The translations under genes were made by a program, and so were the position numbers. Positions 2,642 to 43,031 of a stretch of DNA of 64,000 nucleotides are shown here, one piece after another; position 1 is the stretch's first letter; each line of letters starts with the position of its first letter. Origin of the DNA: Octopus vulgaris (taxonomy: Eukaryota); contig OX597814.1 in assembly GCA_951406725.2 (NCBI GenBank), positions 223,882,001-223,946,000 of the forward strand, written 5' to 3'. The notes beneath the pieces are model-generated. The model did no database searches and was not told the DNA's origin. It was given only the letters and a program-made list of their open reading frames with translations.

Positions 2642-2756
2642 CCTTGAGAGTTTTCAGGGTTTCTTGAGCTTCTTTTAGAATAGCTTCACCTTTTTCTACA
2701 GCTTCCTTAGCTTTTGAATTAGCCTTGAAAATGTCTGACATCAACTTATCTGTTTC
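2642..2756 (-). CDS. LAMC1: Laminin gamma exon, coiled coil (115 nt)
   Basis: ETDKLMSDIFKANSKAKEAVEKGEAILKEAQETLKTLK; phase 0-1. Confidence 0.9.
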
Positions 2757-2847
2757 CTACAGTGATGGAGTAGAAATAAAGATTGTAAATTAGAACAGTG
2801 GTTATGTTGACAGTAATGAAATGATGTGTGTGTGTGTGTGTGTGTGT

Positions 2848-3778
2848 ACATCATCATCATCATTGTTCGACCGTGGTCGAGACAATGGAATTTACTATGT
2901 TACGCCAGACTTCACGGTCCATCATAGCATTACGGAGGTCCTGTTGCTGGATGCCTGTATCCCTGGAGATTACATCAGGGTACGAGAGTGTGCGCCCTCT
3001 GGTATTGCGAGTAGATGGCTTCCAGAGGAGAAGAGTAGAAATGACTTCTTTTTCAGTTCTACAACAATGTCCAGCAAACTGGACTCTCCTACCTTTCACA
3101 AGAGATGACACAGGTGGTAATTTCCCATATATTTGCATTTTGGTTGGATGGCGCTTCCACGAGAGATTTTGAGCTCTCATAAGGAGGCGAGTGTAGGTTC
3201 CATCCAACCGCCTCTCAGGCTTCTTTGATAACGTCCAGGTTTCTGAGCCATTTAGTAGAATTGGTTCGACTGTGGCTTTGAATATTTCAAATTTGAAGTC
3301 TCTACTTAGATTTGATGACCAGATCTTATGCATGTCATTACAGGCTGACCAGGCCATACCCTTTCTAGATAGAAAGTCTTTTCCAGATGATGATTTGTAT
3401 GACCCAAGATATTTATAATCAAAATCCATATTTAAAGGCACACTGTTGAGAGTATGGATGATGCAATCACTGTTGGACAGGCACTTGTTTACGTATTCAG
3501 TTTTGACCTCATGGAGGTAAAGACCTACACAATTTGAGGCTTGTTCAAGAGATTGTAAAAGAGACTGGGCATTGGAGAGAGAATCACTGATAAGAGCGAT
3601 GTCGTCAGTAAAGTCAGTGTCTGTCAAGTACTCAGCTGGGTGTCTGGAACTTCTTCTTGGTTTTATTTCAAAGCCCTTGCCAGAGATGGTATCAACTGAC
3701 ATATGTAGCACATAATCAACAACAATGATGAAAAGAAATGGGGCGAGTGTGTCTCCCTGCAGTATTCCGGCTTTGATT
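2848..3778 (-). mobile_element. 5'-truncated RTE-like LINE, second family (RT C-terminal half in one open frame)
   Basis: GILQGDTLAPFLF, DFTDD (degenerate FADD), YKYLGS, ILLNGSETWTL; short (TGA)n tail right after the stop. Confidence 0.88.
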
Positions 3779-3839
3779 GTGTGTATATACATACATGTGC
3801 ATGTGTGAATTTGTCTATATATAAATGTATACATGTATG

Positions 3840-4030
3840 ATTGGATGCTGAAAAGTTCCTGGCTTCAAGGGTATTGCTAAAGCCCTTGTTGGAGGTCCAA
3901 CCGTCCGAGTTCTGAAGGACCACTGCAACAAGTGTATGATTCTGAGAGAGGAATATGGTGAACAAAATCATAATTAACTGATCCTCCTGTATTTTCTTTT
4001 GCCCAAAGTCAAGAACTATTCAGCACCCTG
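3840..4030. mobile_element. Tc1/mariner-type MITE
   Basis: Terminal inverted repeats (TIRs) gctgaaaagttcctggctt / aagccaggaacttttcagcaccc; other copies at ~10299-10510 and partial ~21425-21530. Confidence 0.7.
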
Positions 4031-4274
4031 TCATATGTTTGTGCCTGTATATAAATGTACATATAAAAAGTACAAGCATGGCTGTGTGGTAAGTGGTTTG
4101 CTTTCCAATCACACAGTTTCAGGTTCAGTCCCACAACACAGTATATTGGGGAACTATCTTCTACTATAGCCCCAGACCAACCAAAATCTTGGGGGTGAAT
4201 CTGGTAGATAGAAACTGAGATAAGCCCATTGCACGTGTGGGTGTACATATGTGTATGTGTGTACATATCTATAT

Positions 4275-4509
4275 ATAACGTGACAGTCTCGTAGAGGGAA
4301 TTGCACCACCGCTATATAGCCCTAGGAATCATCGTCGCTTCCTGTCAGCTTTGACACATTTCCTGTTGCTAGTCCTAGCTGGTGGGGGTGCTTGCCTCCC
4401 CTTTGCAAATATAAGGACACAGGAAATGTGTCAAAGCTGACAGGAAGCATCGATGATTCCTAGGGCTAAACAGTGGTGGTGTAATTCCCATACGGGACTG
4501 TCACGTTAT
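4275..4509. mobile_element. Fold-back MITE with ~90-bp inverted arms
   Basis: ataacgtgacagtc...tttgacacatttcctgt / acaggaaatgtgtcaaa...gactgtcacgttat. Confidence 0.8.
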
Positions 4510-4580
4510 GTTGACTTTATACAACCATTATATCGCTCCACCGCTGCTCATGTCTTGTTGAGACATTTAGAAATTCAATA

Positions 4581-4646
<66 letters not shown>

Positions 4647-4664
4647 ATATGTACACACATATCT

Positions 4665-5412
4665 CGATGTGGATAGCTGTGTAAAAAAGTGCCACACCCT
4701 AGCAGTTGAGGGAACCTGTGGAAGAGGTAGACCCAAGAAGACCTGGGATGAGGTGGTGAAGCAATGACTAGTGACCGGGACCTTTGGAAATATGCTGTGC
4801 TTGAGAAGACTCGGCAAGCTCAAGTGAGACCATAAACCTTGTGGTCTATGTCAGGGGTGTAACCAGCCCACTTTATGCGTACCTTTCCCTCATTGGACAC
4901 TAAACTCTGCTTGCGAAGACCTGTTGAGGCAAGTGAAATTGAAATCAAGTTTGATGACTGGCATCCGTGCTAGTGGAGCGCAAAGAGTACCATACAAGCG
5001 TGATCATTGCCAGAGCAACAAGCTGGCCTCCGTGCCGATGGCACATAGAAAAGCACCATTCGAGCGTGATCGTTACCTACGTCGCCTTACTGGCACTTGT
5101 GCTGGTGGCACGTGAAAAAACATTCGAATGAGGTCGTTGCCACTGCCGCTGGACTGGCTCCTGTGCAGGTGGCACATAAAAAACACCATTTGAGCGAGGT
5201 CGTCGCCAGTACCGCCTGATTGGCCCTCGTGCCGGTGGCACGTAAAAGCACCCACTACAATCTCAGAGTGGTTGGCATTAGGAAGGGCATCCAGCCATAG
5301 AAACTCTGCCAGATCAGATTGGAATTTGGTGCAGCCATCTGGTTCACCAGACCTCGGCCAAATCATCCAACCCATGCTAGCATGGAAAGCGGATGTTAAA
5401 TGATGATGATGA
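4665..5412 (+). mobile_element. RTE LINE 3' fragment (ORF end + 3' UTR)
   Basis: Encodes KCHTLAVEGTCGRGRPKKTWDEVVK and DRDLWKYAV as in ORF 15229-16580, then the UTR and (ATG)n. Confidence 0.88.
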
Positions 5413-5672
5413 TATATATATTTCCCCATACATATATTGGCAGATATGGTATAAACCCAATGAGAAGATGATAACTCTACCATCAAACAAAATGGTAAGA
5501 GTTGAGAGCGGAAGCCATTCATTGTAAAGACAGACTTTAGATGTGATGAAGAAGATAGAAGATTGGAGTAAAACGGTAAATGCTGACCAACACAGCCAGG
5601 CCAAGAGGGAGACAAAATGGTTTAGAACTAAAAAAAAAATGACGATTATATTTTTAGAACAATTTTTAACAA

Positions 5673-6412
5673 CTAAATTAAATCATACCTAAAATTAAAT
5701 CATACTTGTTAAATCATACCTAAAATTAAATCATACCTAAAATTAAATCATACCTAAAATTAAATCATACCTAAAATTAAATCATACCTAAAATTAAATC
5801 ATACCTAAAATTAAATCATACCTGTTAAATCATACCTAAAATTAAATCATACCTAAAATTAAATCATACCTAAAATTAAATCATACCTGTTAAATCATAC
5901 CTAAAATTAAATCATACCTAAAATTAAATCATACCTAAAATTAAATCATACCTAAAATTAAATCATACCTGTTAAATCATACCTAAAATTAAATCATACC
6001 TAAAATTAAATCATACCTGTTAAATCATACCTAAAATTAAATCATACCTAAAATTAAATCATACCTAAAATTAAATCATACCTAAAATTAAATCATACCT
6101 AAAATTAAATCATACCTAAAATTAAATCATACCTAAAATTAAATCATACCTAAAATTAAATCATACCTGTTAAATCATACCTAAAATTAAATCATACCTA
6201 AAATTAAATCATACCTAAAATTAAATCATACCTGTTAAATCATACCTAAAATTAAATCATACCTAAAATTAAATCATACCTAAAATTAAATCATACCTAA
6301 AATTAAATCATACCTAAAATTAAATCATACCTAAAATTAAATCATACCTGTTAAATCATACCTAAAATTAAATCATACCTAAAATTAAATCATACCTAAA
6401 ATTAAATCATAC
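5673..6412 (-). repeat. Minisatellite of 17-bp (gtatgatttaattttag) and 14-bp (gtatgatttaacag) units, ~45 units
   Basis: Direct reading; the array starts exactly at the donor GT of exon 6413-6535. Confidence 0.97.
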
Positions 6413-6535
6413 CTGTTGCTTGTTTAAAGCATCTTCATAGAGAAGATTTGCCTTCCTCTTCTCTTCATCAACCTCATTCAACATGTCATTGTTTGCAGTC
6501 AATGTTTCTTGTAGAGACTTCTGAATTTCATTAGC
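6413..6535 (-). CDS. LAMC1: Laminin gamma exon, coiled coil (123 nt)
   Basis: ANEIQKSLQETLTANNDMLNEVDEEKRKANLLYEDALNKQQ; phase 0-0; donor CAG|gtatga. Confidence 0.88.
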
Positions 6536-7445
6536 CTAAAGACAATACAATAAATATGATTTTTATGTGAGCCAAAATTGAAAATAGTTCATGAAATGAG
6601 GTTGTAATAATTTGAAGTTGTATGCACTCTCAGACAGGTGCTTAAATATGTGTGTGTGTGTGTGTGTGTGCATGCTCGTGTGTTTGTTTGTTACAGGTAA
6701 AGGGAAACAAAATTATGTATGTAAACCAAAGTTTTTCTCAAAAATATGAGACAAGCATTTGAACAAAGATTTTGCTTGGACAAGCAACTCAATTAATCTA
6801 ACAATTGACAAACATTTGACTCAAATGTTTTCTAATACAAGAGTGTACTGGTGATATTCACACTGCATTCAACTCCATCCTCATCTCAAATCATCTATCA
6901 CACTCACTTCATTCTGGCACACTTTCCTACCCACTCATATTTTTTCTTCTGTCCCATTAACTTCACATATTTACTTATTTCTCTCTCTCTCTCTCTCTCT
7001 CCATCTGGGAAACCCATGTATTCACCTCTTCCACAAGACACTTGCTCCTGTCCTATTATATTTTTATATTCCTCAATGCTATACTTCACTCTGCTGAAGG
7101 TGCTTGCCATATTGGTCAGCCCAAGGCTATAGTAGAAGACACTTGCCCAAGGTGCCACACAGTGAAACTGAACCCGGAACCATGTGGTTGGTAAGCAAGC
7201 TACTTACCACACAGCCACTCCTGCACCTTAAATTTATTATAAACACTAAGTCCTACATATTAAGTTAAAAGATTTTAGTTAACAGAATATATTTAATAAG
7301 ATATTTTGTGTATTTGTTTTAAGATATATTGTTGGATTTTTGTTCGATTTTTTTTATCAAAAAATTATGTATTTTTATATATATTTATACTTTCTTATTA
7401 GATAATATATGTACATTTATATAATTATGTTATTGTTTTTATCTC

Positions 7446-8734: not shown

Positions 8735-8912
8735 CTCTTGCTTGATTTTTTCAGCCTCCGTAACTAAGTGATCCACATTGACGTTAGAAATGTTAAATCG
8801 AGCAATTTTTGTATTTATTGCCAAAGCTTTGTTTAATGCGTCTTCGGCCTTCATTTTGGCATTTTTGGATAAGATCTCCGTCTGATGCATCAGATTTTTG
8901 TTATTTTCATTC
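8735..8912 (-). CDS. LAMC1: Laminin gamma exon, coiled coil (178 nt)
   Basis: NENNKNLMHQTEILSKNAKMKAEDALNKA...EAEKIKQE; phase 2-0. Confidence 0.88.
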
Positions 8913-13471: not shown

Positions 13472-16400
13472 TCATCATCATCATCATCATCATCATTTAG
13501 CGTCCGTTTTCCATGCTAGCATGGGTTGGACGGTTCAACTGGGGTCTGGGGAGCCCGAAGGCTGCACCAGGCCAGTCAGATCTGGCAGTGTTTCTACAGC
13601 TGGATGCCCTTCCTAACGCCAACCACTCCGAGAGTGTAGTGGGTGATTTTATGTGCCACCGACACAGGTGCCAGACGAGGCTGGCGAACGGCCACGCTCG
13701 GATGGTGTTTTTATGTGCCACCGACACAGGTGCCAGACGAGGCTGGCAGACGGCCACGCTCGGATGGTGTTTTTATGTGCCACCGACACAGGTGCCAGAT
13801 GAGGCTGGCAGGTGCCAGACGAGGCTGGCAGACGGCCACGCTCGGATGGTGTTTTTATGTGCCACCGACACAGGTGCCAGATGAGGCTGGCGGACGGCCA
13901 CGATCGGATGGTGTTTGTTACATCCCCAAAGCACGGAGGCCAGTCTATGCGGTACTGGCTACGGCCACGTTCGGATGATTTTCTTGTGTGCCACCGGCAC
14001 TGGTACCACAAAGATACAAATTCCATTTATGTTCATCTATTTTGATTTGTTTTGATTTGATTTGATTTGATTTTCACTTGCCTCAACAGGTCTTCACAAG
14101 TGTCACAAGAAGGAAGGTATGCACAGGTGGACTGTCTACGTCGCCGGGTCTTCGGATGGTGTCTTTATGTGCCACCGACACAGGTGCCAGATGTGGCTGG
14201 CGAACGGCCACGATCGGATGGTTTTCTTGTGTGCCACCGGTACTGGAACCACAAAGATACAAATTCCATTGATGTTCATCTATTTTGATTTGGTTTGATT
14301 TTGATTTTCACTTGCCTCAACAGGTCTTCACAAGTGTCACGCGTGTCACACACTTGCCTCAACAGGTCTCCACAAGTGTCACACACTTGCCTCTGCCTCA
14401 ACAGGTCTTCACAAAGTGTCACACACTTGCCTCTGCCTCAACAGGTCTTCACAAGTGTCATAAGAGGGAAGGTATGCACAGGTGGACTGACTACGTCGCC
14501 GGGTCTTTGGATGGTGTTTTATGTGCCACCGACACAGGTGCCAGGTGAGGCTGGCGAACGGCCACGATCAGATGGTGTTTGTTGTGCCCACAGCACGGAG
14601 GCCAGTCGATGCGGTACCAGCTACGGCCACGTTCGGATGGTTTTCTTGTGTGCCACCTGTACTGGAACCACAAAGATACAAATTCCATTGATATTCATCT
14701 ATTTTGATTTGGTTTGATTTTCACTTGCCTCAACAGGTCTTCACAAGGGTCACACACTTGCCTCAACAGGTCTCCACCAGTGTCACACACTTGCCTCTGC
14801 CTCAATAGGTCTTCACAAGTGTCACACACTTGCCTCAACAGGTCTTCACAAGTGTCATAAGAGGGAAGGTATGCACAGGTGGACTGACTACGTCGCCGGG
14901 TCTTCGGATGGTGTCTTTATGTGCCACCGGCACAGGTGCCAGATGAGGCTGGCGAACGGCCACGATCGGATGGTGTTTGTTGTGCCCACAGCACGGAGGC
15001 CAGTCGATGCGGTACTGGTTACGGCCACGTTTGGGTGGTTTTCTTGTGTGCCACCGGCACTGGTACCACAAAGAATACAATTCCACTGATGTTCATCTAT
15101 TTTGATTTGTTTTGATTTGATTTGATTTGATTTTCACTTGCCTCAACAGGTCTTCATAAGTGTCACAAGAAGGAAGGTATGCACAGGACTGACTACGTCC
15201 CAGGTCGGGGCCACGGGTTATGGCCTGACTAGTCTTGCCGGGTCTTCTCATGCACAGCATACTTCCATAGGTCTCGGTCTCTAGACATTTCCTTAGTGAG
15301 ACCTAAAGTTCGAAGGTCGTGCTTCACCACCTCGTCCCAGGTTTTCCTGGGTCTACCTCTTCCACAGGTTCCCTCCACTGCTAGGGTGTAGCACTTTTGC
15401 ACACAACTATCTTCAGCCTTTCTTGTCACATGACCATACCAGCGCAGCCGTCTCTCTTGCACGCCACAACTGACGCTTCTTAGGTTCAGCTTTTCTCTCA
15501 AGGAACTTACACTCTGACGATTATGAACACTGACATTACACATCCATCGGAGCATACTGGCTTCATTTCTTGCGAGCTTACGCATATCCTCAGCAGTCAC
15601 GGCCCATGTTTCACTACCATGTAGCATGGCTGTACGTACACATGCATCATACAGTCTGCCTTTTACTCTGAGCGAGAGGCCTTTTGTCACCAGCAGGGGT
15701 AAGAGCTCTCTAAACTTTGCCCAGGCTATTCTTACTCTAGCAGTTACACTTTCAGCACACCCACCCCCGCTACTGACTTGGTCTCCTAGGTAGCGGAAGC
15801 TATCAACTACTTCTAGTTTGTCTCCCTGGAACGTGGCAGAAGTTGGTCTCTGCATATTTCCAGTGTTTATTGCTCCTGAGCATTTGCCACAGACAAAAAC
15901 TATTTTCCTAGTTAGCCTTCCTTTGACATTGCTGCACCTCTTATGTGTCCATAGCTTACACTTGGTGCATTTTATAGAGTTTCTACCTACACCTTTTTTA
16001 CAGATCGAGCAGGGCCATCTACCTGAAGGCGTTTGTGATTGATCTACCTTCCTACTTATTAGAACTTTGGTTTTGGCTAGGTTGATTCTAAGGCCCTTCG
16101 ATTCTAATCCTTGTTTCCACACCTGGAACTTCTCCTCCAGTTCTGATAGTGACTCAGCAATTAGAGCAAGGTCATCAGCATAGAGGAGCTCCCAGGGGCA
16201 ACCTGTCTTGAATTCCTCCGTTATTGCCTGGAGGACTATGATAAATAGGAGGGGACTGAGGACTGAACCTTGGTGGACCCCAACCTCTACCCGGAATTCT
16301 TCACTGTACTCGTTGCCCACCCTCACCTTACTAGCAGCGTCTCTGTACATGGCTTGCACAGCTCTCACCAACCATTCTTCTATCCCTAGTTTCCTCATTG

Positions 16401-16580
16401 ACCACCAGATAAGGGACCGGGGGACCCTGTCAAAGGCTTTCTCCAAGTCAACAAAAGCCAGGTACAAGGGCTTATCTTTGGCTAGGTATTTCTCCTGCAG
16501 CTGTCTTACCAGGAATATAGCATCAGTAGTACTTTTCCCTGGCACGAACCCAAACTGCATATCATCTAAGGTAACTCTCT
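13472..16580 (-). mobile_element. 5'-truncated RTE-clade LINE with open RT frame (15229-~16580), embedded PHD finger and expanded repetitive 3' UTR
   Basis: QFGFVPGKSTTDAIF, AFVDLEKAFDRV, GVHQGSVLSPLLF, YADD (16171-16182), FRYLG, RRLRWYGHV, GRGRPRKTW; (ATG)n tail at 13472-13496; no endonuclease domain. Confidence 0.95.
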
Positions 16581-16684
16581 CTTCAAAAAATAGTTTCCTT
16601 GTTTTGGAAAAAGTGTAAATAGCCAAATGGTTAAGATATTACACAACCAACTTAAAAGCTGTGAATTTATATCCTTATTTTATA

Positions 16685-27257: not shown

Positions 27258-28736
27258 CTAAAATTAAACATTATACATGAATACATAAATGTGTGTGTAC
27301 GTACGTACATACATACATACATACATACAATCATCACCATCATCACCATCATCATTATTTGATGCCCACTTTTCAATGGTTCTCAGATTTTATTTTAGAT
27401 TTTTTACAGTCATATGTCTATTCTGTCACCAATCCTCACTTGTTCCAGGCAAGATAATGTTACCACATGGACAAACATGTTCTCACACATTATTGAAAAT
27501 GAATGACACTGCTTGTGTGACAGTGACACTCATTTACAGCTATCATGCAATGTCTAGATAAGGACACAAAATCACACACACACACACACACACGTACACA
27601 CATACATACAAGAGGTTCTTTCAGTTTCCATCTGTTAAATTCACACACAGGTCTTTGGTCGGCCTGGAGTTATTGTAGAAGACACCCAAAGTGCCACATG
27701 GTGGGACTGAACCCAGAACCATGTGGTTGGACAGTAAACTTCTTACCACACAGCCATGCCTGCACCTATGTGTGAATGCATTTTGAATTACACATAAAAT
27801 ATCCATCACAGAAATAAACAAAGAAGTGAAGACCAATGATTCTTCATTCTTTGCTTATAAAACCTCCTCAGTTTTTAATAAAAAAAAAAGACGAGAGACA
27901 ACACTGTATTCATTCAGGGTTACATAATAATCACAGTTTAGGCTCATTAGTGGTCAGCTGGATCTAATGTTAGATTATTAGCCAAATATTCCATGAAACA
28001 TATCTCCCCATCACCAACACTAATTGAGTTTATGACAAAAGTATTCAACTCTCTCTCTCTCTCTCTCTCACACACATTGGTTTATCTGGCTGTAGTTAGG
28101 TAACATGAGTACATACTTCTCACCACTACTTGAAACAGGAGAACTGCATTGTGAATTTCACAAGTGTCTAGAGTCATTGTTATCATATACTTTACAGACT
28201 ATGAAAGAAATATGCAGACCATCATTTCATATTAAAAAAATTCTATCACCTGTACAGTTCAAGTAGAATCTTCGTATATGTCATAATTCCAACATAATGT
28301 TTTTTAGCTTTTTGTTTTTCTTTTCATAATGGATACAGGTTGAGTTCTTTTGTTTCAATTCATTTTGAGAATAGTAAAGAATTTAGTAAAATAACTCTGC
28401 TGTTATTAAGTAGAATTTTGATACGAAGTTTCAATTTATATGACTTTAAAATGATTAGTTTTTCTCATACAACCAGGAGTGGTCTCTGGTGATTCAGTAT
28501 CAGATCTTCATCATATGAAACAGCTAACTTGGACAAGGTTTTTTAGGGGTTTTTTTTGCTACCTCACTCCATTTTTTTCTCTTCATTTTGTTTCCATATT
28601 CCTTTCTGTCATACATCACTGGCTCGAAACATCAAAGACATATCCATTTTTCTTGAGCATCAAACTAACACACCTTGTTTGTTGTACATTTGGACCATTC
28701 ATAAACTATTGCTTAACAACAAAAAAGACAACTTAC

Positions 28737-28989: not shown

Positions 28990-30386
28990 AAAGAGAAGAA
29001 TCAAGAGTCGATGAAAAAGAGAAGGAAACAGGAGACTCAAGAATCAAATGAAGTGGAGAAATGGGAGAGTCAAAAGTTAATGAAGAGAAAGAAAGAGAAG
29101 AATCAAGAGTCAATGAAGAGAAAGAAAGAGAAGAATCAAGAGTCAATGAAGAGAAAGAAAGAGAAGAATCAAGAGTCAATGAAAAAGAGAAGGAAACAGG
29201 AGACTCAAGAATCAAATGAAGTGGAGAAATGGGAGAGTCAAAAGTTAATGAAGAGAAAGAAACAGAAGAATCAAGAGTCAATGAAGAGAAAGAAAGAGAA
29301 GAATCAAGAGTCAATGAAGAGAAAGAAAGAGAAGAATCAAGAGTCAATGAAAAAGAGAAACAAACAGGAGACTCAAGAATCAAAAGAAGAGGAGAAATGG
29401 GAGAGTCAAAAGTTAATGAAGAGAAAGAAACAGAAGAATCAAGAGTCAATGAAGAGAAAGAAAGAGAAGAATCAAGAGTCAATGAAAAAGAGAAACAAAC
29501 AGGAGACTCAAGAATCAAAAGAAGAGGAGAAATGGGAGAGTCAAAAGTTAATGAAGAGAAAGAAACAGAAGAATCAAAAGTCAATGAAGAGAAAGAAAGA
29601 GAAGAATCAAGAGTCAATGAAAAAGAGAAACAAACAGGAGACTCAAGAATCAAAAGAAGAGGAGAAATGGGAGAGTCAAAAGTTAATGAAGAGAAAGAAA
29701 CAGAAGAATCAAGAGTCAATGAAGAGAAAGAAAGAGAAGAATCAAGAGTCAATGAAAAAGAGAAGGAAACAGGAGACTCAAGAATCAAAAGAAGAGGAGA
29801 AATGGGAGAGTCAAAAGTTAATGAAGAGAAAGAAACAGAAGAATCAAGAGTCAATGAAGAGAAAGAAACAGAAGAATCAAGAGTCAATGAAGAGAAAGAA
29901 AGAGAAGAATCAAGAGTCAATGAAAAAGAGAAGGAAACAGGAGACTCAAGAATCAAAAGAAGAGGAGAAATGGGAGAGTCAAAAGTTAATGAAGAGAAAG
30001 AAACAGAAGAATCAAGAGTCAATGAAGAGAAAGAAACAGAAGAATCAAGAGTCAATGAAAAAGAGAAACAAACAAGAGACTCAAGAATCAAAAGAAGAGG
30101 AGAAATGGGAGAGTCAAAAGTTAATGAAGAGAAACAGAAGAATCAAGAGTCAATGAAGAGAAAGAAAGAGAAGAATCAAGAGTCAATGAAAAAGAGAAAC
30201 AAACAGGAGACTCAAGAATCAAAAGAAGAGGAGAAATGGGAGAGTCAAAAGTTAATGAAGAGAAAGAAACAGAAGAATCAAGAGTCAATGAAGAGAAAGA
30301 AACAGAAGAATCAAGAGTCAATGAAGAGAAAGAAACAGAAGAATCAAGAGTCAATGAAGAGAAAGAAAGAGAAGAATCAAGAGTCA
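28990..30386. repeat. Hierarchical purine-rich minisatellite (33-bp and 69-bp units)
   Basis: aatgaagagaaagaaa(g/c)agaagaatcaagagtc x2-4 alternating with a 69-bp unit; fills ~90% of the intron. Confidence 0.97.
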
Positions 30387-30493
30387 AGGTCAGAGTATAA
30401 GTAATAAATCAATTAAAAGTATAACAAAACAATAAAAAAAAAGAAATAAAAGAAAAGCAAAAAAATATAATAGTAAAAAAGAAAATCTAATAC

Positions 30494-41991: not shown

Positions 41992-42142
41992 AATCGTGGT
42001 GCAGCACGGATTTTTGTCAGTGTATATCTTATACACACACACATACATTAATCAAAGTATACAGTATTGTAGATCCATTTCAGCTAATCTTGACACTCAG
42101 TTTTGCGCTGGATATTAATTAACGGCATGAGCGAGTAACACC

Positions 42143-43031
42143 ATATGCAGACGACATCAAGCTGTACCTTGAAATCAAGAGGACTGATCCTGATGTCTAC
42201 AACTCTTTCCTGCAATCAGACCTAGACACAATGCAGCAATGGATCACAGACTGGCAACTGAAACTGGCTGTGGACAAGTGTACCACCATGCATTTTGGGA
42301 GAAAAAACCCTGCGTCCACATACTCCCTCCACAACACTGATATCAAGAAATCCTCTTGCGAGCGTGACCTAGGCATCACTGTCAGCAGTGATTTGCGTTG
42401 GACAAAGCATATCTCTAAAATTGTCAAGAAGGCCGAGGGTGTCTTGGTATCACTCAGCAAGACTTTTGTTAGCCGCTCTCCAGCCATCTATTTAAAACTG
42501 TATACAGCTATGGTACGACCACACTTGGAATTCGCATCATCAGTTTGGAATCCCTATCTTGTTCAGAACATTGACCTCCTGGAATCTGTCCAGAGACGTG
42601 CAACCAAACACATACCCTCCATCAGACACCTACCATATTCTGAGCGCCTTGTTTCCCTGGGCATGGATTCACTGAAGCTCCGGCGTCTGGTGACGGACTT
42701 GGTAAACACCCACAAGGTTATCAACCACCTCACCAACAACAACACTGAACACCTTTTTGATCTCCATGTGTCTAACACACGTGGACATGCCTACAAAGTC
42801 AGAAAATAGCACAGCTCCCATGACTTTCGGAAACATTTTTTCACGCTCAGGGTTGCTGAAGCGTGGAATAAACTGCCTGCGTCAGTTGTTGACTGCCATG
42901 ACACTGCATCCTTTAAGGCCCTCATGCTTCCCGAAATCCGTCGAAACTACACCTGATTATATATACACTTTAGATGAGTTGTAGTGCACCTGAGCATTGT
43001 ACACAATTATTATTATTATTATTATTATTAT
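42143..43031 (+). mobile_element. 5'-truncated CR1-clade LINE
   Basis: YADDIKLY, LQSDLD, ERDLGI, VRPHLEFASSVWNP, LESVQRRATK, TRGH, RVAEAWNKLP; one in-frame stop; (TTA)n tail. Confidence 0.92.

What the first reader, a model, noticed from the sequence alone, without database searches (positions are those of the whole stretch)
5673..6420. A minisatellite made from the exon's own splice donor: ~45 stacked YAG|GTATGA junctions
Seen: the array begins at intron nucleotide +1. Essentially every unit starts GTATGA and ends TTTTAG (17 nt) or AACAG (14 nt). The roughly 8 short units recreate the true exon end AACAG|GTATGATTTAA, with one decayed. Each junction is thus both acceptor-like and donor-like, the geometry of recursive splice sites. 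Because the exon is phase 0, using any downstream donor reads GTA TGA, an immediate stop. Inference: array length could tune laminin output through donor competition and nonsense-mediated decay (NMD), or act as a U1 decoy. It also resembles the tandem-AGGT-duplication route to intron gain.
Basis: partly seen in the sequence, partly recalled or inferred. Interest (0 to 1): 0.75.

Follow-up and report, generated by a model that had tools for sequence, protein, structure and literature searches.

The report
Splice-donor minisatellite in octopus laminin intron
The start of one intron of an octopus laminin gene, splice signal included, is copied 45 times head to tail, but the one assembled transcript examined uses the first signal, so it is likely a near-harmless new example of a repeat type already known from human and lancelet genes.

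Summary
A 740-nt array of 45 units (36 x 17 nt, 8 x 14 nt of which one is decayed, one terminal 16-mer) starts at +1 of a 3,656-nt phase-0 intron of octopus laminin gamma-1 (minus strand). It gives 43 extra AG|GTATGA junctions, and any downstream donor would read GTA TGA. It is unique in the genome and real: array sequence appears in 4 of 4 runs laid, from four studies and two species labels. The one spliced contig joins the first donor to acceptor 2756; no internal-donor junction was listed, though contigs drop rare forms. Both units are best explained by local slippage on 2-nt microhomologies. Minisatellites that repeat a donor are published (human F7, 6-16, CBS, LMNB2, PDGF; amphioxus 'mirages'), and in F7 only the first donor is used. 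This scan has noted the same kind on other DNA, and I confirmed a second case in this genome (dlg). Tuning by NMD, a U1 decoy and intron gain are unsupported; recursive use is possible in sequence and untested. Verdict: new member of a known kind, interest 0.22.

The parts
5673..6412 (-). Minisatellite of 45 units (36 L 17-mers, 8 S 14-mers, terminal 16-mer), intron +1 to +740
   Evidence: unique in G000; present in 4 of 4 runs
6413..6535 (-). Laminin gamma-1 coiled-coil exon, 123 nt, phase 0-0 (ANEIQ...ALNKQQ)
   Evidence: tblastn and junction fit with P0001; covered by the spliced contig of X10; letter-for-letter in P0086 and P0087
6407..6415 (-). Authentic donor CAG|GTATGA; intron +4..+6 (6409-6407) is an in-frame TGA
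6348..6361 (-). First S unit; the others start at 6245, 6180, 6030, 5982, 5900 and 5835; each recreates AACAG|GTATGATTTAA
5706..5719 (-). Decayed S unit ending CAA (the only internal substitution)
5673..5688 (-). Terminal 16-mer GTATGATTTAATTTAG running into unique intron; likely closest to the ancestral intron start (inferred)
   Evidence: flank plus array bridged by contigs of X1 and X3
2757..6412 (-). Host intron, 3,656 nt, phase 0
   Evidence: junction seen in X10
2642..2756 (-). Next exon (ETDKLM...), acceptor at 2757/2756
8735..8912 (-). Preceding exon, joined to 6535 in the spliced contig

Best explanation
This is a locus-specific minisatellite that repeats the donor of a laminin gamma-1 exon 43 times inside the intron, likely born by local replication slippage and likely near-neutral because splicing takes the first donor. 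The 17-mer would arise by slipping between the exon's terminal AG and the first intronic AG; the 14-mer would arise by slipping between intronic TTTAA and exonic GCAA (AA microhomology). Further slippage or unequal exchange would then mix and multiply the two units (inferred). Exon definition or first-come selection likely fixes donor 1, as shown for human F7; any rare use of a downstream donor would carry a stop and probably be degraded.
For: Shown: unit anatomy and anchoring at +1; unique locus, so not a dispersed satellite or transposon; a 5,277-nt contig of run X10 joins the preceding exon, this exon at donor 1 and the exon at 2756; proteins of three Octopus species, Argonauta and one unnamed relative read QQ|E across the junction with no insertion; array sequence in 4 of 4 runs from 4 studies. 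Precedent: F7 pseudo-sites are functional but silent, and the most upstream site is chosen (PMC1557585); amphioxus mirages do not disturb regular splicing (PMC3087553). No enrichment is needed: 2 arrays of 10 or more copies in 400 kb sampled (40 stretches) put a seed unit over a given base at about 3e-4, i.e. tens of donor-spanning arrays per genome if there are 1-2e5 donors (donor number assumed). A second case in this genome was confirmed at a dlg exon.
Against: RNA evidence is one run of assembled contigs, labelled RNA only by guess; contigs drop rare forms and NMD would hide the predicted products. In 6-16 and CBS the next one or two donors are used (PMC1557585 introduction). Downstream donors score 6.6-7.9 against 7.9 for the true one, within the range of real donors of this gene (1.5-11.6), and the array RNA has no special fold to mask them (z -0.60). 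F7 is mammalian; no mollusc was tested. The ancestral single-copy state was not seen. The neutral-rate estimate rests on two arrays.
Confidence: 0.75

Rival explanations
1. Leaky donor competition coupled to NMD: donors 2 to n take a measurable share of splicing, the products stop at GTA TGA and are degraded, so allele length or make-up tunes laminin output.
For: Stop at intron +4 with 4 further introns downstream; 7 donors identical to the true one over -5..+11; in human 6-16 and CBS neighbouring pseudo-donors are used; contig-depth ratios of 17-17 to 14-mer words are 2.0 (X3) and 2.2 (X10) against 3.9 in the window, a weak hint that alleles differ.
Against: No internal-donor junction among the 3 contigs laid from X10. 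In the published cases only the nearest one or two extra donors are used, which would make leak largely independent of total length. The first perfect S donor lies 65 nt downstream. The tool warns that contig depth is not copy number.
Confidence: 0.12
2. Recursive ladder: donor 1 splices to the AG of an internal unit, which regenerates exactly CAG|GTATGA, so the array is removed stepwise and the mRNA is unchanged.
For: L junctions share 13 nt (TTTAATTTTAG|GT) with an authentic acceptor of the same gene at 27258. They score 6.0 (27 junctions) on a matrix from 21 acceptors of this gene, above the true acceptor (4.8); only 4 of 153 other AGs in the intron score as high. A branch-like TTAAT sits in every L unit, about 24 nt before the next unit's AG (the consensus is recalled). 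Recursive splicing occurs over a range of intron sizes (PMC10156609).
Against: No direct evidence; the final mRNA cannot show it. The intron is only 3.7 kb, and recursive use rises with intron length. The matrix is small and contains the look-alike acceptor. The geometry follows automatically from copying an AG|GT donor in AT-rich DNA.
Confidence: 0.08
3. Early stage of intron gain by AGGT tandem duplication, or a U1 decoy with an effect of its own.
For: AG|GT at each junction; the mirage model of intron gain (PMC3087553); 43 sites with 6-7 of 9 matches to the donor consensus.
Against: The Rogers route duplicates coding sequence so that exon lies on both sides (PMC3265369); here the copies lie inside an existing intron, carry 2-5 exonic nt and have stops within 12 codons in all frames. 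One pre-mRNA is a small sink for U1 (inference).
Confidence: 0.03
4. Assembly or sequencing artefact.
Against: Unit-to-unit junction contigs in X2, X3 and X10, and flank-plus-two-unit contigs in X1 and X3; four studies. Only the exact count of 45 is unconfirmed.
Confidence: 0.02

Closest known systems
Human F7 intron 7 37-bp VNTR (Borensztajn et al. 2006, PMC1557585; seen: abstract, passages of introduction and results, whole discussion)
   Same: The first unit spans the exon-intron boundary; the donor is reiterated in the intron; the first donor is the one seen in RNA.
   Different: F7 has 5-9 units of 37 bp with 4 exonic nt and was tested with 50 constructs. Here 45 units of two interleaved lengths (17, 14), only 2-5 exonic nt, each unit a GT...AG string, a stop right after the donor, an invertebrate, and no functional test.
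Human 6-16 (IFI6), CBS intron 13, LMNB2 and PDGF minisatellites (as summarised in the PMC1557585 introduction; CBS notation c.1444_1467+7(16_21) in passages of PMC2630376; the original papers were not read)
   Same: Donor-reiterating minisatellites of 10-26 units.
   Different: 6-16 and CBS use up to two extra donors; LMNB2 and PDGF use only the authentic one. Extra-donor use here would give an immediate stop and was not seen.
Amphioxus 'mirage' repeats (Adh3, globins BflGb6 and BflGb9; passages of PMC3087553)
   Same: Invertebrate tandem duplications of exon-intron boundaries with AG/GT signals, variable in length, not disturbing regular splicing; Adh3 units of 10-72 bp.
   Different: Different phylum; globin mirage units carry large exon parts (about 150 bp) that could be recruited, whereas these units carry almost none.
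Recursive splice sites / ratchet points (PMC10156609 outline and one results section; other papers seen as search listing only)
   Same: Juxtaposed acceptor and donor, YAG|GT.
   Different: Recursive sites are defined by observed intermediates and are favoured in longer introns; here 43 stacked copies next to the exon in a 3.7-kb intron, with no intermediate observed.
Intron gain by AGGT tandem duplication (Hellsten et al. 2011, PMC3265369; abstract and opening section)
   Same: Tandem duplication of a segment holding AG|GT.
   Different: There the duplicate is coding sequence and creates a new intron; here an existing donor is copied into its own intron and no new intron results.

Membership tests
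Exon-intron-boundary minisatellite (F7/CBS/6-16 type; 'mirage') | Tandem array whose first unit spans or abuts an authentic exon-intron boundary | tested here: met
Exon-intron-boundary minisatellite (F7/CBS/6-16 type; 'mirage') | Splice-site sequence reiterated in the intron | tested here: met
   43 AG|GTATGA, 7 identical to the true junction over -5..+11
Exon-intron-boundary minisatellite (F7/CBS/6-16 type; 'mirage') | Locus-specific unit derived from local sequence | tested here: met
   36 of 36 and 7 of 7 genome matches at this locus
Exon-intron-boundary minisatellite (F7/CBS/6-16 type; 'mirage') | Authentic (most upstream) donor used in mature RNA | tested here: met
   One spliced contig in one run; database proteins agree
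Exon-intron-boundary minisatellite (F7/CBS/6-16 type; 'mirage') | Length polymorphism (VNTR) | tested here: inconclusive
   Word-depth ratios 2.0 and 2.2 against 3.9 in the window; contig depth is not copy number and no read spans the array
Recursive splice site | Acceptor-like sequence directly followed by a donor | tested here: met
   (small matrix)
Recursive splice site | Observed intermediate (exon joined to internal site, lariat, saw-tooth coverage) | not testable with these tools
   All runs offered were contigs
Regulated unproductive splicing (AS-NMD) | Alternative site creates a stop upstream of later junctions | tested here: met
   TGA at intron +4; 4 later introns
Regulated unproductive splicing (AS-NMD) | The unproductive isoform is made and is stabilised when NMD is blocked | tested here: inconclusive
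   Not listed among the contigs of one run; no NMD-blocked data
Intron gain by AGGT duplication | Duplicated coding sequence with exon on both sides of a new intron | tested here: not met
   Copies lie in an existing intron; stops in all frames; protein collinear with relatives

The most novel reading that the evidence does not exclude
The array is a self-neutralising ratchet: each unit is a minimal GT...AG string with a branch-like motif one unit upstream, so the spliceosome can cut from donor 1 to any internal AG, regenerate the identical CAG|GTATGA donor, and so remove the expansion stepwise without changing the mRNA. That would be a minisatellite made of working recursive splice sites in a short intron, and a natural length series for testing recursive splicing in a mollusc.
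Probability: 0.08. Interest if true: 0.6.

Novelty: new member of a known kind. Interest (0 to 1): 0.22.

Why it matters
As it stands it extends donor-reiterating minisatellites to a cephalopod and suggests that first-donor preference, shown for human F7, also holds in a mollusc. Its compact units (14 and 17 nt, each GT...AG, with an immediate stop) make it a clean natural substrate for asking how 5' splice sites are chosen among identical neighbours. It would matter more if internal junctions were used recursively or fed NMD in a length-dependent way, since a repeat polymorphism would then set the dose of a basement-membrane protein. No paper held all of octopus, minisatellite, intron and splice in a relevant sense (1 listed, a human repeat review); subscription journals are not searched.

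Tried and rejected
No RNA holder was on record among the 24 runs listed, and all were contigs, so no raw or long reads were available; 4 of the 24 were laid, over the exon and the first two units only, so no record spans the array. The exon had no cover in the three DNA runs (a filter leaves records out; not a finding). Genome-wide enrichment: a triple AGGTRAG pattern gave 960 matches against 2,609 for the reversed control; uninformative, as the reversed motif likely favours GA-rich simple repeats, and the pattern cannot see this array or the dlg one. The 100 matches listed fell in 17 loci on C1; none of the 17 was shown to follow a real exon, judged by eye from open frames. The best candidate (L045) had no protein homologue and, like L054, lies in an inverted repeat. 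No orthologous DNA in metagenome contigs (0 matches). RNA structure masking donors: rejected, z -0.60. Dispersed satellite or transposon origin: rejected. One of 23 exon pairs could not be refined in the gene model, so matrices rest on 22 introns. Four paper look-ups were not held: Turri 1995 is cited only through PMC1557585, and two recursive-splicing papers were not seen. A search for recent human VNTR-splicing cases found nothing relevant; one on recursive splicing with minisatellites listed one review, not read. PMC10078293 passages gave no boundary-spanning case. No supplements were opened.

Full report
Observation. On the minus strand, 6412->5673 parses without remainder into 45 units (740 nt): 36 17-mers GTATGATTTAATTTTAG (L), 7 14-mers GTATGATTTAACAG (S), one S decayed to ...CAA, and a terminal 16-mer. 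TRF scores it 1249 at period 17. There are 44 GTATGA downstream of the true donor, 43 of them after AG. Two junction patterns match only here in the 2.80-Gb genome G000 (36 of 36 and 7 of 7 matches; reversed controls 0).

Host gene. Exons in the window carry laminin EGF and laminin B domains (4 of 5 tested pieces hit Pfam). The best protein match is laminin subunit gamma-1 of Octopus sinensis. Two proteins named Octopus vulgaris match this exon letter for letter, where O. sinensis differs at one residue, so the window is most likely O. vulgaris. A junction fit placed 22 introns. The exon is 6535-6413 (123 nt, phase 0-0), the host intron 6412-2757 (3,656 nt), and four more introns follow. The array therefore starts exactly at intron +1, and read-through gives Val-stop.

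Is it real? Of 24 runs listed four were laid on 6379-6630. X1 and X3 have contigs joining the distal unique flank to two units. X3 has further contigs made only of 17-17 and 17-14-17 junctions. X2, under a second species label, has two small contigs with the 14-mer junction. X10 has two array contigs. These are four studies; even if one is the source of the assembly, three remain. No record spans the array, so the count of 45 is the assembly's. The depth ratio of 17-17 to 14-mer words is 2.0 in X3 and 2.2 in X10 against 3.9 expected from the window. That hints at different alleles, but the tool warns that contig depth is not copy number.

Which donor is used? X10 (RNA by guess only, but it holds a 5,277-nt contig that skips two introns) joins the preceding exon to 6535 and the donor at 6413 to the exon at 2756. 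No contig joining an internal donor to that exon was listed among the 3 laid. Contigs drop rare forms and NMD would deplete them, so this shows the main form and not absence. Proteins of O. sinensis, O. vulgaris, O. bimaculoides, Argonauta and one unnamed relative read QQE across the junction.

Signal strength. With matrices built from this gene's own sites (small sample), the true donor scores 7.9 and TAG|GTATGA 6.6, against 1.5-11.6 for real donors; 2 of 156 other GTs in the intron reach 6.6. As acceptors, 43 junctions were scored: 27 at 6.0, 7 at 4.6, 7 at 2.9, one at 5.3 and one at -3.9, against 4.8 for the true acceptor; 4 of 153 other AGs reach 6.0. One authentic acceptor of the gene, at 27258, ends TTTAATTTTAG|GT like the L junction, and it is part of the training set. 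The array RNA folds no better than shuffles (z -0.60).

Origin (inferred). L is what a slip between the exon's last AG and the first intronic AG would give; the terminal 16-mer differs from it by one T. S is what a slip from intronic TTTAA back to exonic GCAA would give. Both use 2-nt microhomologies, and S is never adjacent to S in the window. One internal substitution in 740 nt implies a young or homogenised array; its presence under two species labels suggests it is not private to one animal. The ancestral single-copy state was not seen (one search found no orthologous DNA). The AG|GT at each joint is a by-product of copying a donor whose exon ends in AG.

Is anchoring at a donor special? 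In 40 stretches of 10 kb from five contigs, 5 non-simple arrays of 4 or more copies were found and 2 of 10 or more. That puts a seed unit over any given base at about 3e-4; with an assumed 1-2e5 donors, tens of such arrays are expected without enrichment. This rests on two arrays and gives only an order of magnitude. A direct enrichment test failed, and 0 of 17 donor-motif arrays inspected were shown to follow an exon. Its RNA was not examined here.

Comparison with what is known. PMC1557585 (abstract, passages, discussion) describes the human F7 37-bp VNTR spanning an exon-intron boundary: the pseudo-donors work when the first is destroyed but do not compete with it. Its introduction lists 6-16 and CBS (two extra donors used) and LMNB2 and PDGF (only the authentic one). 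The CBS notation in PMC2630376 confirms that boundary-spanning unit. PMC3087553 (passages) describes amphioxus mirages that leave splicing intact. The array meets the tested defining features of this kind; polymorphism is inconclusive. It fails the test for AGGT intron gain (PMC3265369). Recursive use is defined by intermediates that could not be examined; it occurs at many intron sizes but more in long ones (PMC10156609). Earlier notes of this scan report the same kind in sharks, an abalone, an annelid and this genome; they are unchecked except as stated.

Verdict. Best reading (0.75): a slippage-born, likely near-neutral donor minisatellite with first-donor splicing. Rivals: leaky donors feeding NMD (0.12), a recursive ladder (0.08), intron gain or decoy (0.03), artefact (0.02). 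What sets it slightly apart is the very short, two-variant, self-contained GT...AG unit and the acceptor-grade look of the L junction. New member of a known kind; interest 0.22.

Noticed in passing
window 28990-30387: A second minisatellite in the same gene (33-bp unit, about 42 copies) fills 1,398 of the 1,535 nt of intron 30493-28959. It is pyrimidine-rich on the sense strand and ends about 30 nt before the acceptor without spanning it; its long open frames are probably a by-product of the repeat.
   Followed up: partly
window 27258: An authentic acceptor of this gene ends TTTAATTTTAG|GT, identical over 13 nt to the L junction of the array.
   Followed up: partly
G000:C19:36991910-36992211 (L107 about 1500-1815): A 30-bp array starts at the CAT|GTAAGT donor of a discs-large exon: a second donor-anchored minisatellite in this genome.
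   Followed up: partly
window 2860-3864 (-), 15229-16638 (-), 42123-42809 (+): Open frames of 334, 469 and 228 aa that look like non-LTR retrotransposon reverse transcriptase fragments (label recalled from motifs, not scanned); the first lies in the array's own intron.
   Followed up: no
G000:C1:7033426-7034505 (L041 1492-2617): A 29-bp array of about 39 copies with TTTGACAG|GTGAG at each joint, both acceptor- and donor-like, with no exon found upstream.
   Followed up: partly
L045 about 1420-1730 and L054 about 1370-1660: Short donor-like repeats lie inside inverted-repeat (foldback-like) elements.
   Followed up: partly
window 2641 donor; protein P0088: The O. bimaculoides protein model continues past the next exon's donor (…TLRGRWSFSSFL), resembling read-through into the intron in the window's frame (…TLKGRCLFSSFL); a model quirk or intron retention.
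   Followed up: no
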